DNA from: an uncultured virus (IMG/VR IMGVR_UViG_3300021958_000031)
Lineage: Duplodnaviria; Heunggongvirae; Uroviricota; Caudoviricetes
Length of the DNA stretch: 64,000 nt
IMG/VR virus record: IMGVR_UViG_3300021958_000031
Direction: 5' to 3' (one strand)
Shown here: positions 11,576-61,115 of the stretch, piece after piece
Numbering within the stretch: position 1 is the stretch's first letter
Layout of the letters: every line of letters starts with the position of its first letter
Made by a program: the position numbers and the translations under genes
Notes under the pieces: generated by a model
What the model was told of the DNA's origin: nothing
What the model saw: the letters and a program-made list of their open reading frames with translations, nothing else
Databases searched by the model: none

Positions 11576-11776
11576 TTAAGAATTTTTTTGCTCCTCATCC
11601 CTAAGGCCTTGGATGTAAATAGCTTTTTGTTTTTTAAGTCTTTTAGTCTCAGACTTTTTAATATAATATTTGTTATCTTTAAGTTGCCTTATTTGTTTAG
11701 TTTTCTTTAGTTTTTGCTTATATCTTTTAAGCATTCTATCAATAGAGTCTTTTTCATTTCTTTTAATTATTATCAT
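11576..11776 (-). CDS. rpsU: 30S ribosomal protein bS21 (phage copy)
   Basis: SIDRMLKRYKQK...YYIKKSETKR...KAIYIQ matches Bacteroidota-type bS21. Confidence 0.88.
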   Translation of the reverse strand: MIIIKRNEKDSIDRMLKRYKQKLKKTKQIRQLKDNKYYIKKSETKRLKKQKAIYIQGLRDEEQKNS

Positions 11777-13538: not shown

Positions 13539-13734
13539 TTTTAAAATTTTTTTGTTAAAATTATCGTTTTCATTGTTATTAAAACACTCAAATAGTATAA
13601 GAATAAATCTAGTACTTTTAAATTATCATATTATTTAAGTGAGTGGTTCATAAACAGATTAGTTTATGAATTTCTTTGATATTTTCTAATTTCTTTTTGT
13701 TATATTTAATTATATAGCATAAAGTTTATTTGTT

Positions 13735-14178
13735 TCATACATTATGAACTACTGATCCTGAAGGGATGTCAGTATTATTAGGTATATCTACACCTTCGTG
13801 TATTGTTACGTTATCTCCTATTGTTACCCCATCTCCTATATTACAATTTATATCTATAATAGTACCAGCCCCAATATACACCTGATCACCTATTACGGTA
13901 CCTGGTCTAATTAACGAGCAGCAACCAACAAATAATCCTTTACCTACAGTAACGCTGTTTAAGTTATTACACCCTTTAAATAATATCTCCAGTTTTGCCC
14001 CACCTAGTTGAGAGTTTTGAACGGCTACCCTATCATCACCGTTTTCTAATGCAATTACCCAGGGTAAATTACCAGGTGCTTGGTCATAATTAGATTCGTC
14101 AAATTGTGCATACTCACCGTCATTTAATAATGAGGTTATTTTTGTAGCCCAATCTCCAGTTCCATAAATGTTTAACAT
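13735..14178 (-). CDS. Hexapeptide-repeat (left-handed beta-helix) acetyltransferase-like protein
   Basis: Repeats VTVGKG / TVIGDQ / VYIGAG / CNIGDG / VTIGDN. Confidence 0.75.
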   Translation of the reverse strand: MLNIYGTGDWATKITSLLNDGEYAQFDESNYDQAPGNLPWVIALENGDDRVAVQNSQLGGAKLEILFKGCNNLNSVTVGKGLFVGCCSLIRPGTVIGDQVYIGAGTIIDINCNIGDGVTIGDNVTIHEGVDIPNNTDIPSGSVVHNV

Positions 14179-14201: not shown

Positions 14202-14663
14202 TTAGTTAGTGTAAGATATATTTACATTTCCTGCTGTAGTATCAGTAACCCAATAAGGCGGTGGTGCGGTAACACTTTGTAAGTATATACCTTCTGTTGG
14301 TTTGTTTTGTATCTCACTGTAAAATTCAGCCAGCTCTTCCTCGGTCATAGATTCAATCATATCATTTAAAACCATGTCTAATGCATGTGATTCATCAAAC
14401 TCTTCATTAGGTTTATGACGATCAACATAAGGGTCATGTTTAGGTCCTTTTTGAACATAGAGTAAATTAGTTCCTATTAGCTCAGCTTCTAAAATACCAT
14501 CTACATAAATTTCCTTTACTGCATTGTATGGAAGTGATTCTGGGATTAATTCTTGATATAAATCTGATTGCGCTGAGATAATTTTTGCCACATACGCTTT
14601 AGTATATTTAACATTATACTCTGAGACTTTACCGCTTATTGTAATTGTTTTTACTTTTGACAT
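14202..14663 (-). CDS. Hypothetical protein
   Basis: 153-aa ORF. Confidence 0.6.
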   Translation of the reverse strand: MSKVKTITISGKVSEYNVKYTKAYVAKIISAQSDLYQELIPESLPYNAVKEIYVDGILEAELIGTNLLYVQKGPKHDPYVDRHKPNEEFDESHALDMVLNDMIESMTEEELAEFYSEIQNKPTEGIYLQSVTAPPPYWVTDTTAGNVNISYTN

Positions 14664-14685
14664 TAGTTTAGATTGTAATAAAAAA

Positions 14686-15113
14686 GGGAAGACGATACGG
14701 AAGGGCTTGAGAATACCTTCATCATTGCGAGCTGCTTTAAATTAGACTACCACTTTTTGAATTGCCATTCTATTACTTAATTAAACCGGCCGAGGTTTAA
14801 TCATCGTAATTGGTCATCATAACCTTTAAGTGTACCTTACGCCACATACTCTTTGCGTTGTTCAGTCATTAACTAGGCTTCGGCGGTCTGCCTTCCTAGA
14901 AGTCTTTGCAAAATCTCTGTTAGATTTTTATTGCATTGAACCTAAGTTCTGGTAATTACTCCAGTTCTGTTTCCTCATTTGAGTCATCAGCGAACCATCG
15001 TTCTAACTTAGTGCCTTATTCCCTTTTGCTCAGGAATTTTTCGGCCACGCATCTACACATAATTGGAATAATCATTTAGGAGCTACCTAAAGCCTTCCAT
15101 TCTGTGCCTTCCC
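14686..15113 (-). ncRNA. Large structured non-coding RNA (~428 nt), possibly GOLLD-like
   Basis: No long ORF. 5' GGGAAGGC...ATGGAAGG pairs with 3' CCTTCCGT...GTCTTCCC; many internal hairpins; own promoter (15152-15180) and a downstream U-tract. Confidence 0.7.
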
Positions 15114-15449
15114 ATAATTTCATAGAACTTTTTAATCCGTTTGGATTTATTATTATATACTTAATTTTAAAATAGTTTCATCATTTTTCAGGGGGATCCA
15201 TTATATGAGGAGCATATTGCATTACCTCAACCGTTTCTTCTACTGCGTTATATAATGAAATACCTAAAAGTGCCAAAGCACATGCGATAATAATTGCTAT
15301 TACTCCTTTCATTTCTCGTTTTACTTATTGCCAATACAAAAAAATATAGGCAATGGCTAAGTATACCTAACAACTGGACTTTCACCGTGTTTTTCGGGGT
15401 TATTGGTTTGCATACGATACTATTAACCCTTTTTCTCCCACTACCTATA

Positions 15450-15704
15450 TTACTTCTCTATATAATTGTTTGACATCAATGTCAATAAAATACTCACCTC
15501 TGTAGGATTAGTGAACCTAATCTCTGGAGTTTCAAATACTTCCACATACCATCCATCTTCTTCAACCTCATCACTTGCTTGAGAGATTAAGCTGAAGCTG
15601 CCTACGTCGTATACGTAGTAGTGCCAATCCTTTGATGTTCCACTATTCTCAGCTGTCTCGTCAATACGAGTGAAGTCTAAATCTAATAAATCCTTCTCTG
15701 TCAT
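15450..15704 (-). CDS. Hypothetical protein
   Basis: 84-aa acidic ORF. Confidence 0.65.
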   Translation of the reverse strand: MTEKDLLDLDFTRIDETAENSGTSKDWHYYVYDVGSFSLISQASDEVEEDGWYVEVFETPEIRFTNPTEVSILLTLMSNNYIEK

Positions 15705-60709: not shown

Positions 60710-60755
60710 AATTTATAAATTTGTTTATTATTATATACCTTAAATTAATTTAGTT

Positions 60756-61115
60756 TCATAGTATTTCAATATCATTTTCTAAATCTTTCTTAGTTGGTAT
60801 AGTAACATATAGTATACCTTTTTCTACTTTAGCTTTAATTTTCTTTCTATCAAAATCATCAGGTAGGCCAAACCTTTTACTTAAAGGTGGAGTCCACATG
60901 TTATCTTCACTTTCAATTACAACACTTAAGTCATTCTTAATAAGCTTAATTTTAATATCTTCTTTATCAAAACCAGGAACTGGTATTTCTAAAATGTATT
61001 TGCCATCTTCTTTATCAAAATGGTATTCTTTAAAGGGATTTTTAATTTTATCCATTTCACCCCAAAATGGATGATCCTCAAGGATCTTGTCAAAGTTTGT
61101 TTTGAATGTAAACAT
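60756..61115 (-). CDS. Small heat-shock protein (Hsp20)
   Basis: VPGFDKEDI, F.LP and A.VEKGIL.VTIP motifs. Confidence 0.9.
   Translation of the reverse strand: MFTFKTNFDKILEDHPFWGEMDKIKNPFKEYHFDKEDGKYILEIPVPGFDKEDIKIKLIKNDLSVVIESEDNMWTPPLSKRFGLPDDFDRKKIKAKVEKGILYVTIPTKKDLENDIEIL

What the first reader, a model, noticed from the sequence alone, without database searches (positions are those of the whole stretch)
14686..15113. ~430-nt end-paired structured RNA with its own promoter, in the tRNA region
Seen on the minus strand: the 5' end GGGAAGGC-ACAGA-ATGGAAGG pairs with the 3' end CCTTCCGT-ATC-GTCTTCCC, followed by a U-tract. Internal hairpins include TTTAGG-TAGCT-CCTAAA, ATTCCT...GGGAAT, GAAC-TTAG-GTTC, AAAATCT...AGATTTT, CTAGG...CCTAG and ATTAAACC-TCGGCC-GGTTTAAT. 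There is no long ORF, GC is raised, and a TGAAAC-17-TATAAT promoter sits ~40 nt upstream. Known: GOLLD and ROOL large RNAs occur in phages, often near tRNA genes. Inference: the 3' segment GAAGGTATTCTCAAGCCCTTC reminds me of GOLLD 3' ends (from memory, unverified), so this may be a compact GOLLD relative or a new ornate RNA class.
Basis: partly seen in the sequence, partly recalled or inferred. Interest (0 to 1): 0.8.

Follow-up and report, generated by a model that had tools for sequence, protein, structure and literature searches.

The report
Doubled manA RNA in large phages
A large bacterial virus carries a conserved non-coding RNA made of two fused, intertwined copies of the manA RNA, a motif that builds hollow RNA cages in the test tube, and its sequence changes suggest that the contacts used to build those cages also matter in nature.

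Summary
The element (14686-15113, minus strand) is a real structured RNA, but neither GOLLD-like nor a wholly new class. It is a tandem double of the manA RNA (RF01745). Rfam gives two sub-threshold manA matches. A model built only from second units of distant relatives finds both units and nothing else significant in 64 kb. I found 85 distinct homologues in three clades, with compensatory changes above a tree-based null. The P8 strands appear swapped between units, so unit 2 nests inside unit 1; support is strong in clades B and C, weaker in the window's clade. Loops matching the intermolecular contacts of manA cages (L8-L9, L5-L7) stay complementary across the units. Best reading: a stand-alone, self-assembling phage RNA, a fused manA dimer. 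Assembly, expression, ends and biological role are untested. This scan noted the tandem reading before on another genome (e1-6191320); that note, as shown, does not mention the swap or the cross-unit contacts.

The parts
14686..15113 (-). Whole tandem manA-like RNA (428 nt between the end-paired termini; the true transcript ends are not mapped)
15152..15180 (-). Promoter-like site (two hexamers, 17-nt spacer); would start transcription near 15145 (inference)
   Evidence: not above chance alone; similar sequence in the closest homologues
15114..15131 (-). Short leader motif seen upstream of the RNA in all three clades; resembles an antitermination boxA (label recalled, from no call)
   Evidence: by eye in alignments; a clade-B weight matrix did not rank the window's copy among its 16 best sites, so weak here
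15108..15113 (-). P0 5' strand, pairs with 14691-14686
   Evidence: 95% of cells paired
15056..15106 (-). P1 arm; its apical loop (15085-15081) holds a self-complementary 4-mer, a candidate symmetric kissing loop between two RNA molecules
   Evidence: function inferred by analogy with PMC12286853
15048..15053 (-). P2 5' strand, pairs with 14699-14694 and closes both units
   Evidence: 3 of 6 pairs double-changed; found independently by RNAalifold and the helix scan
14939..15047 (-). Unit 1 manA core (P3, P4 junction with P5, P6, P7)
   Evidence: Rfam manA 26.1 bits over 15065-14899; model R1 28.3 bits, E 3.5e-4
14933..14939 (-). P8 5' strand of unit 1, pairs with the P8 3' strand of unit 2 (14728-14722): helix P8x
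   Evidence: 83% paired, 5 of 7 pairs double-changed; top-ranked helix in clades B and C; RNAalifold prefers a local hairpin in clade A
14908..14917 (-). L8 of unit 1 (14917-14914, complementary to L9 of unit 2, 14712-14709) and the strand 14911-14908 that is complementary to L3 of unit 1 (15029-15026)
   Evidence: each 100% paired, 2 of 4 pairs double-changed
14901..14905 (-). P8 3' strand of unit 1, pairs with the P8 5' strand of unit 2 (14748-14744): helix P8y, which encloses unit 2
   Evidence: 96% paired, 2 of 5 double-changed; also predicted by RNAalifold
14873..14899 (-). P9 hairpin of unit 1
   Evidence: 100% paired, 2 of 5 double-changed
14751..14868 (-). Unit 2 manA core; its L5 (14819-14816) is complementary to L7 of unit 1 (14956-14953); its L3 (14851-14844) to 14735-14729
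   Evidence: Rfam manA 21.2 bits over 14893-14689; model R1 30.3 bits, E 1.2e-4; pair counts
14700..14720 (-).
   Evidence: 100% paired, 3 of 5 double-changed; aligns to the last manA hairpin
14680..14685 (-). U-tract after the closing helix, likely 3' end
   Evidence: sequence; present in most but not all homologues

Best explanation
A stand-alone phage non-coding RNA that arose by internal duplication of the manA motif and works as a self-assembling structural RNA. Shown by comparison: two manA cores inside one closing helix; P8 strands exchanged between the units so that unit 2 is nested in unit 1 (a covalent, domain-swapped dimer); L3 contacts kept within units; L8 of unit 1 complementary to L9 of unit 2 and L5 of unit 2 to L7 of unit 1. 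Inferred: these are the interfaces that join neighbouring monomers in manA pentamers, so the fused RNA encodes one monomer-monomer interface between its own halves. It then builds higher oligomers either by using these contacts between molecules or through the self-complementary P1 loop, which cannot pair within one molecule. Because the protomer has two unlike units and I found no reciprocal contacts, the product should be an even-membered ring or a different cage, not the pentamer-based shell. Most weakly inferred (about 0.3): the particle is an abundant, stable scaffold or decoy made during infection beside the phage's tRNA and translation genes, in the manner proposed for GOLLD and ROOL.
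For: Two full-model manA matches in tandem. Model R1, built from 17 unit-2 cores of clades B and C only, hits both window units at 30.3 and 28.3 bits, next best 14.6, and 5 of 6 canonical manA at E <= 0.011. Clade C unit 2 passes the manA gathering score (11 loci, 61-68 bits) and 4 of these 11 also list a weaker upstream unit. Named model on 16 sequences: 94.5% of cells paired, 57 of 124 pairs double-changed, slid controls 35-46%. Unbiased scans with a tree-based null: helices with >= 2 co-change events 12 (B), 20 (C), 6 (A) against null means 0, 0.33, 0.83; P8x has 7 events in B and 9 in C. L8u1-L9u2 fully paired in 33 of 33 B and 28 of 28 C rows with letters, with double changes; L7u1-L5u2 in 29 of 34 B and 31 of 31 C and 16 of 16 in A2. 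Swapped P8 duplexes beat unswapped in 81 of 81 sequences. P1 loop palindrome in 30 of 30 C, 13 of 15 A rows and >= 95% of B rows with three types at columns 50-51. Downstream context varies: 14 ORF clusters, tRNAs within 330 nt in 5 of 58. manA cages use L5-L7', L8-L9' and L3-L8' contacts (10.64898/2026.07.01.735769).
Against: Both window units are far below the manA gathering score (55.2) and plain alignment of the two halves is not significant (28 of 500 shuffles as high). In clade A, P8x is only 83% paired, did not pass the scan threshold, and RNAalifold prefers a local hairpin that competes with P8x and two of the loop contacts. The clade-A pairs were chosen by eye on the same sequences and the double changes come from one to three lineages; the swapped-versus-unswapped energies use segments chosen for being complementary. 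L7u1-L5u2 is only 3 pairs in B and C, nearly invariant in C and broken in 5 of 34 B rows. Palindromes also occur in other loops (for example 7 of 11 in B L9u2), the loop-shuffle expectation is high (11.6 of 15 in C), and only 3 of 6 canonical manA scored by the strict rule. Covariation cannot tell intra- from intermolecular pairing. My incomplete nested model scores -82.6 against an MFE of -115.4 kcal/mol. manA cages are so far in vitro only; my loop numbering is mapped from the Rfam model because the preprint's supplement was closed.
Confidence: 0.58

Rival explanations
1. The same doubled fold, but a monomer: all cross-unit contacts are intramolecular, the duplication closes the particle on itself, and the RNA works alone or with a protein (for example as a binding platform or decoy).
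For: Reciprocal contacts (L5u1-L7u2, L9u1 with an L8 of unit 2) were not recovered by the scans; unit 2 has no clear L8 hairpin; one trial pairing of L5u1 in clade C, at a single register, gave 0 of 31. bS21 genes occur on 14 of 28 mostly fragmentary records, and OLE RNA is proposed to bind this protein (PMC12286853).
Against: A self-complementary P1 loop that switches among several palindromes across clades is the signature used for symmetric intermolecular kissing in OLE and GOLLD. No flanking protein gene is conserved downstream. The bS21 count has no control set and the gene can lie more than 150 kb away.
Confidence: 0.2
2. A tandem cis-regulatory element or double-aptamer riboswitch in the leader of the next gene, as manA was first proposed to be.
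For: manA was described as a riboswitch candidate in 5' UTRs (PMC2864571). In 11 of 13 clade-A-group members a same-strand ORF starts 13-33 nt past the end of the aligned stretch. Competing folds exist near P8. Tandem aptamers are known (glycine riboswitch; recalled).
Against: 14 different downstream ORF clusters; a tRNA starts 3-38 nt after the RNA in 3 members, and clade C ORFs mostly start about 190 nt away; in L351 a tmRNA-like gene follows directly. The RNA is closed by an end-helix and U-tract; I saw no conserved expression platform (by eye).
Confidence: 0.13
3. A catalytic RNA, for example acting on neighbouring tRNA precursors or on itself.
For: Complex pseudoknotted fold; 9 of 18 clade-B members have a tRNA within 600 nt; a hammerhead-like core can be read at 14990-14969 (by eye).
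Against: No ribozyme family matched up to E 10; the hammerhead-like letters vary among close homologues; tRNAs are near only 1 of 8 clade-A and 0 of 24 clade-C members.
Confidence: 0.06
4. A compact GOLLD or ROOL relative.
For: Large end-paired RNA in a phage, sometimes between tRNAs, like GOLLD and ROOL.
Against: No GOLLD or ROOL match; about half the length of GOLLD (many over 800 nt); both halves match manA.
Confidence: 0.03

Closest known systems
manA RNA motif (Rfam RF01745; Weinberg et al. 2010, PMC2864571; cages in bioRxiv 10.64898/2026.07.01.735769)
   Same: Order of helices, the conserved core around P3, the P4 junction, the last hairpin, the closing helix P2, and complementary loop pairs L3-P8 strand, L5-L7 and L8-L9.
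   Different: Two cores in one RNA (428 nt against about 200); P8 strands exchanged between units; L5-L7 and L8-L9 complementary only across units; an added end-helix P0; scores below the family cut-off in clades A and B. The 6 canonical manA found among 49 records were all single-unit within 300 nt.
GOLLD and ROOL RNAs (Kretsch et al. 2025, PMC12286853)
   Same: Large ornate phage RNAs, often near tRNA genes, with covarying kissing loops; may work alike as RNA-only assemblies (inference).
   Different: No sequence or model match; shorter; built by duplication of one module.
EGFOA strand-exchanged dimer (same preprint)
   Same: Two RNA units linked by exchanged helix strands.
   Different: There the exchange is between separate molecules of an unrelated family; here it is fixed in one chain.

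Membership tests
manA (RF01745) | Score at or above the Rfam gathering threshold (55.2 bits) | tested here: not met
   26.1 and 21.2 bits in the window; up to 44 bits in the clade-A group and about 33 in clade B; met by unit 2 of clade C (61-68 bits)
manA (RF01745) | manA core and helix order (P3, P4 junction with P5-P7, P8, P9, closing P2) | tested here: met
   full-model alignments; pair counts; cross-detection by model R1
manA (RF01745) | Single unit of about 190-215 nt with a local P8 helix | tested here: not met
   two units; swapped P8 better than local in 81 of 81; canonical P8 is local, 5 of 7 columns varying on both sides in 5 sequences
manA (RF01745) | Complementary L5-L7, L8-L9 and L3-P8 loops | tested here: met
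   met, but L5-L7 and L8-L9 only across units; loop numbering inferred
manA (RF01745) | Position in the 5' UTR of metabolic, chaperone or photosynthesis genes | tested here: not met
   14 unrelated downstream ORF clusters or tRNAs; the window's downstream ORF has no Pfam or PHROG match
manA (RF01745) | Assembly into pentamer-based RNA cages | not testable with these tools
   needs mass photometry or cryo-EM
GOLLD (RF02032, accession recalled) | Match to the GOLLD model, above all its conserved 3' region | tested here: not met
   no match up to E 10 or E 0.5 on 28 related loci
GOLLD (RF02032, accession recalled) | Length often above 800 nt, near tRNA genes | tested here: not met
   428 nt; tRNA within 600 nt in 10 of 50 members
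ROOL, RNase P RNA, tmRNA, group I/II introns, hammerhead | Match to the family's covariance model | tested here: not met
   none listed

The most novel reading that the evidence does not exclude
A widespread family of phage RNAs has fixed one monomer-monomer interface of the manA cage inside a single chain, as a domain-swapped covalent dimer, and assembles in infected cells into an RNA-only particle with a new, even-membered geometry. The cross-unit covariation would be evolutionary evidence that manA cage contacts are under selection in nature, and manA as a whole would be a stand-alone structural RNA rather than a riboswitch candidate.
Probability: 0.4. Interest if true: 0.88.

Novelty: new variant of a known kind. 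Interest (0 to 1): 0.7.

Why it matters
manA cages, including a 60-mer, have been seen only in vitro, and the roles of manA, GOLLD and ROOL are open questions. A natural fused dimer whose halves keep the cage contacts complementary through compensatory changes suggests these interfaces are functional, and names exact base pairs to break and rescue. It also shows that some Rfam-level manA hits (clade C) are only the 3' half of a longer RNA, so constructs and models cut at 192 nt miss the real molecule. As a two-unit protomer it is a ready template for RNA cage design.

Tried and rejected
Expression: 19 RNA runs under 19 study codes hold 0.35-0.42 of 88 sampled words of window 14600-15500, of which the RNA is 47.5%. 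No reads or contigs were laid, so I do not count this as evidence of expression, ends or habitat. No whole genome is held for the window. Cultured phage records hold no homologue of the RNA (only short matches). Plain alignment of the two halves is not significant. A pairing of the unit-2 P6 loop (14793-14788) with 15046-15041: 88.5% paired, 0 of 6 double-changed, no better than shuffles, and it competes with a short helix that covaries in clades B and C: rejected. Hammerhead-like core: not conserved. A conserved small ORF: longest stop-free stretch on the RNA strand 24 codons; the two plus-strand ORFs of 41 and 47 aa that overlap it were not followed up. Leader weight matrix did not single out the window's leader or its tRNAs. 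Literature searches that found no tandem manA: 'manA RNA'+'phage', 'GOLLD'+'manA', 'RF01745', 'manA'+'structured RNA'+'tandem'+'phage', nanocage terms; the word 'tandem' does not occur in the cage preprint's main text.

Full report
Observation. The element lies at 15113-14686 on the minus strand, is 428 nt long and richer in G+C than the window (40.7% against 33.0%). It has no stop-free stretch over 24 codons on its own strand and folds better than shuffles (z -2.98). The outer end-helix, the U-tract and four of the named hairpins hold up in homologues. The inner end-helix does not (69% paired, 0 of 8 pairs double-changed). The nearest tRNAs are about 1.35 and 2.7 kb away.

Setting. The window encodes ribosomal protein bS21, four tRNAs and phage-type enzymes such as a DNA ligase and thymidylate synthase; none of 31 proteins scanned matched a capsid family. 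Close homologues lie on IMG/VR viral contigs. bS21 was found on 14 of 28 mostly fragmentary records carrying the RNA, in all three clades, without a control set. Chen et al. describe bS21 phages of 293-331 kb and 31-34% GC with predicted Bacteroidetes hosts (PMC9723584, passages), and one partial member lies on a contig of a Flavobacteriaceae bin (L513). A large phage of Bacteroidetes is therefore an inference.

Identity. Rfam gives nothing at gathering level, but two adjacent full-model manA matches below it: 26.1 and 21.2 bits against 55.2. Plain alignment of the halves is not significant, so I tested the duplication another way. Pattern scans and iterated nhmmer gave 86 distinct sequences including the window: 21 in the clade-A group, 34 in clade B, 31 in clade C. 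Identities to the window are 86-91% among the non-redundant clade-A rows, 67% and 51% for two outliers, and 45-50% for clade B. Model R1, built from 17 unit-2 cores of clades B and C and no clade-A or unit-1 sequence, finds two significant hits in the whole window, the two units (E 1.2e-4 and 3.5e-4; next E 0.6). It also finds 5 of 6 canonical manA at E <= 0.011; unit 1 of other members scores from strong to marginal. In clade C, unit 2 passes the manA cut-off in 11 loci and 4 of them list a weaker second unit upstream; these loci were selected by a tandem pattern. The 6 canonical manA found among 49 records searched (50 of 117 loci given, 1 not held) have no second unit within 300 nt.

Structure. 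A column-pair G-test with a tree-based null (my own script, not R-scape) gave 5 pairs at E < 0.05 in clade B, all Watson-Crick, and 8 at E <= 0.05 in clade C, 7 Watson-Crick; they include L3 to P8-strand pairs of unit 2 and an L8(unit 1)-L9(unit 2) pair. An unbiased helix scan found 12, 20 and 6 helices with at least two co-change events in B, C and A, against null means of 0, 0.33 and 0.83 over 12 simulations; a few listed helices are mutually incompatible. Among the best are P2, which closes both units, and P8x, which joins the P8 5' strand of unit 1 to the P8 3' strand of unit 2. The partner helix P8y joins the other two strands and encloses unit 2. Both are nested, so the fold is a domain-swapped dimer in one chain. 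Swapped duplexes beat local ones in 81 of 81 sequences, although the segments were chosen for complementarity. On alignment A2 (16 of the 21 clade-A-group sequences; five 3'-truncated rows left out, L351 standing for L229) the named model has 94.5% of cells paired and 57 of 124 pairs double-changed, against 35-46% paired for slid controls. Against this: the A2 pairs were picked by eye, the 5' columns of the two outliers are misaligned, P8x is 83% paired there, and RNAalifold recovers P2, P8y and both cores (except P7 and part of P6 of unit 1) but prefers a local hairpin to P8x.

Link to cages. The preprint 10.64898/2026.07.01.735769 (read: parts 1-2 of 5, the Discussion, and passages; supplement closed) reports manA 60-mers, decamers and octamers held by intermolecular L5-L7', L8-L9' and L3-L8' contacts. 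In five canonical sequences the L5-L7 and L3-P8 strands are complementary, which supports my mapping of loop numbers but does not prove it. In the tandem RNA, L8 of unit 1 pairs with L9 of unit 2 in 33 of 33 B rows, 28 of 28 C rows and 15 of 15 A2 rows with letters, with double changes in each clade. L5 of unit 2 pairs with L7 of unit 1 in 16 of 16 A2 rows (2 of 4 pairs double-changed), 31 of 31 C rows (nearly invariant) and 29 of 34 B rows. Reciprocal contacts were not recovered. The P1 apical loop holds a self-complementary 4-mer whose identity differs between clades. Kretsch et al. used the same signature for symmetric intermolecular kissing loops in OLE and GOLLD (PMC12286853, passages). 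This signal is moderate: palindromes occur in other loops, and only 3 of 6 canonical manA passed the strict rule.

Mechanism. Shown by comparison: duplication, closing helices, swapped P8 (strong in B and C, weaker in A), cross-unit loop complementarity. Inferred: a stand-alone transcript, since downstream neighbours fall into 14 ORF clusters or are tRNAs; folding into a pre-formed manA dimer; further assembly through cross-unit contacts between molecules or through the P1 loop, with even-membered geometry. Speculative: a role as scaffold or decoy during infection. I put the self-assembling reading at 0.58, a monomer at 0.20, a tandem cis-regulator at 0.13, a ribozyme at 0.06 and a GOLLD relative at 0.03.

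Known and new. manA was described as a 5'-UTR riboswitch candidate (PMC2864571, passages and two supplement passages; PMC9964418, PMC7657543 and PMC7779021, passages). The window's RNA works like manA in architecture but fails the family's score, length and context tests, so I file it as a new variant, not a plain member. My searches found no tandem manA in print; subscription papers are not covered. The viral candidates of PMC10690425 are at most 151 nt (passages), so fragments of this RNA could be in its tables, which I did not search.

Noticed in passing
window 15343-15451 (-): A second end-paired element of about 110 nt (14-bp terminal helix, U-tract; folding z only -1.21). Its 50-nt core (15435-15386) is 80-86% identical to DNA of Klebsiella and Erwinia phages. 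In phage VLCpiM5b the match lies inside a group I intron of the DNA polymerase gene; in RaK2 and pEp_SNUABM_01 it stands alone just after a tRNA. Possibly a free-standing intron-derived domain; no Rfam match in the window.
   Followed up: partly
L351 1578-1694 (+): A 117-nt tmRNA-like gene that keeps the tRNA-like domain but lacks most of the mRNA-like part (54.9 bits), directly after the tandem RNA.
   Followed up: no
L130, L216, L151, L176 and other clade C loci: Above-threshold Rfam manA hits that are only the 3' half of a roughly 390-nt tandem RNA; what the model takes as P1 is P9 of unit 1.
   Followed up: yes
L364 1103-1256 (-) (also L366, L385, L436); L405 79-264 (+): Sub-threshold single manA-like units (42.3 and 37.8 bits) in unrelated contexts; no second unit was listed for them.
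   Followed up: no
window 11576-11776 (-): Phage-encoded ribosomal protein bS21 (PF01165) just after tRNA-Gln and tRNA-Pro; present on 14 of 28 records that carry the RNA.
   Followed up: partly
window 13709-13737, 15152-15180, 60730-60758 (-): Three similar promoter-like sites with a 17-nt spacer on the minus strand, possibly a phage promoter class; weak statistics.
   Followed up: partly
window 14791-14788 (-): A second self-complementary 4-mer in the P6 loop of unit 2, kept in 15 of 16 rows of A2; a possible extra symmetric contact, untested.
   Followed up: no
L505-L510: Canonical manA copies begin just after promoter-like sites (by eye), which fits stand-alone transcripts as well as 5' UTRs.
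   Followed up: no
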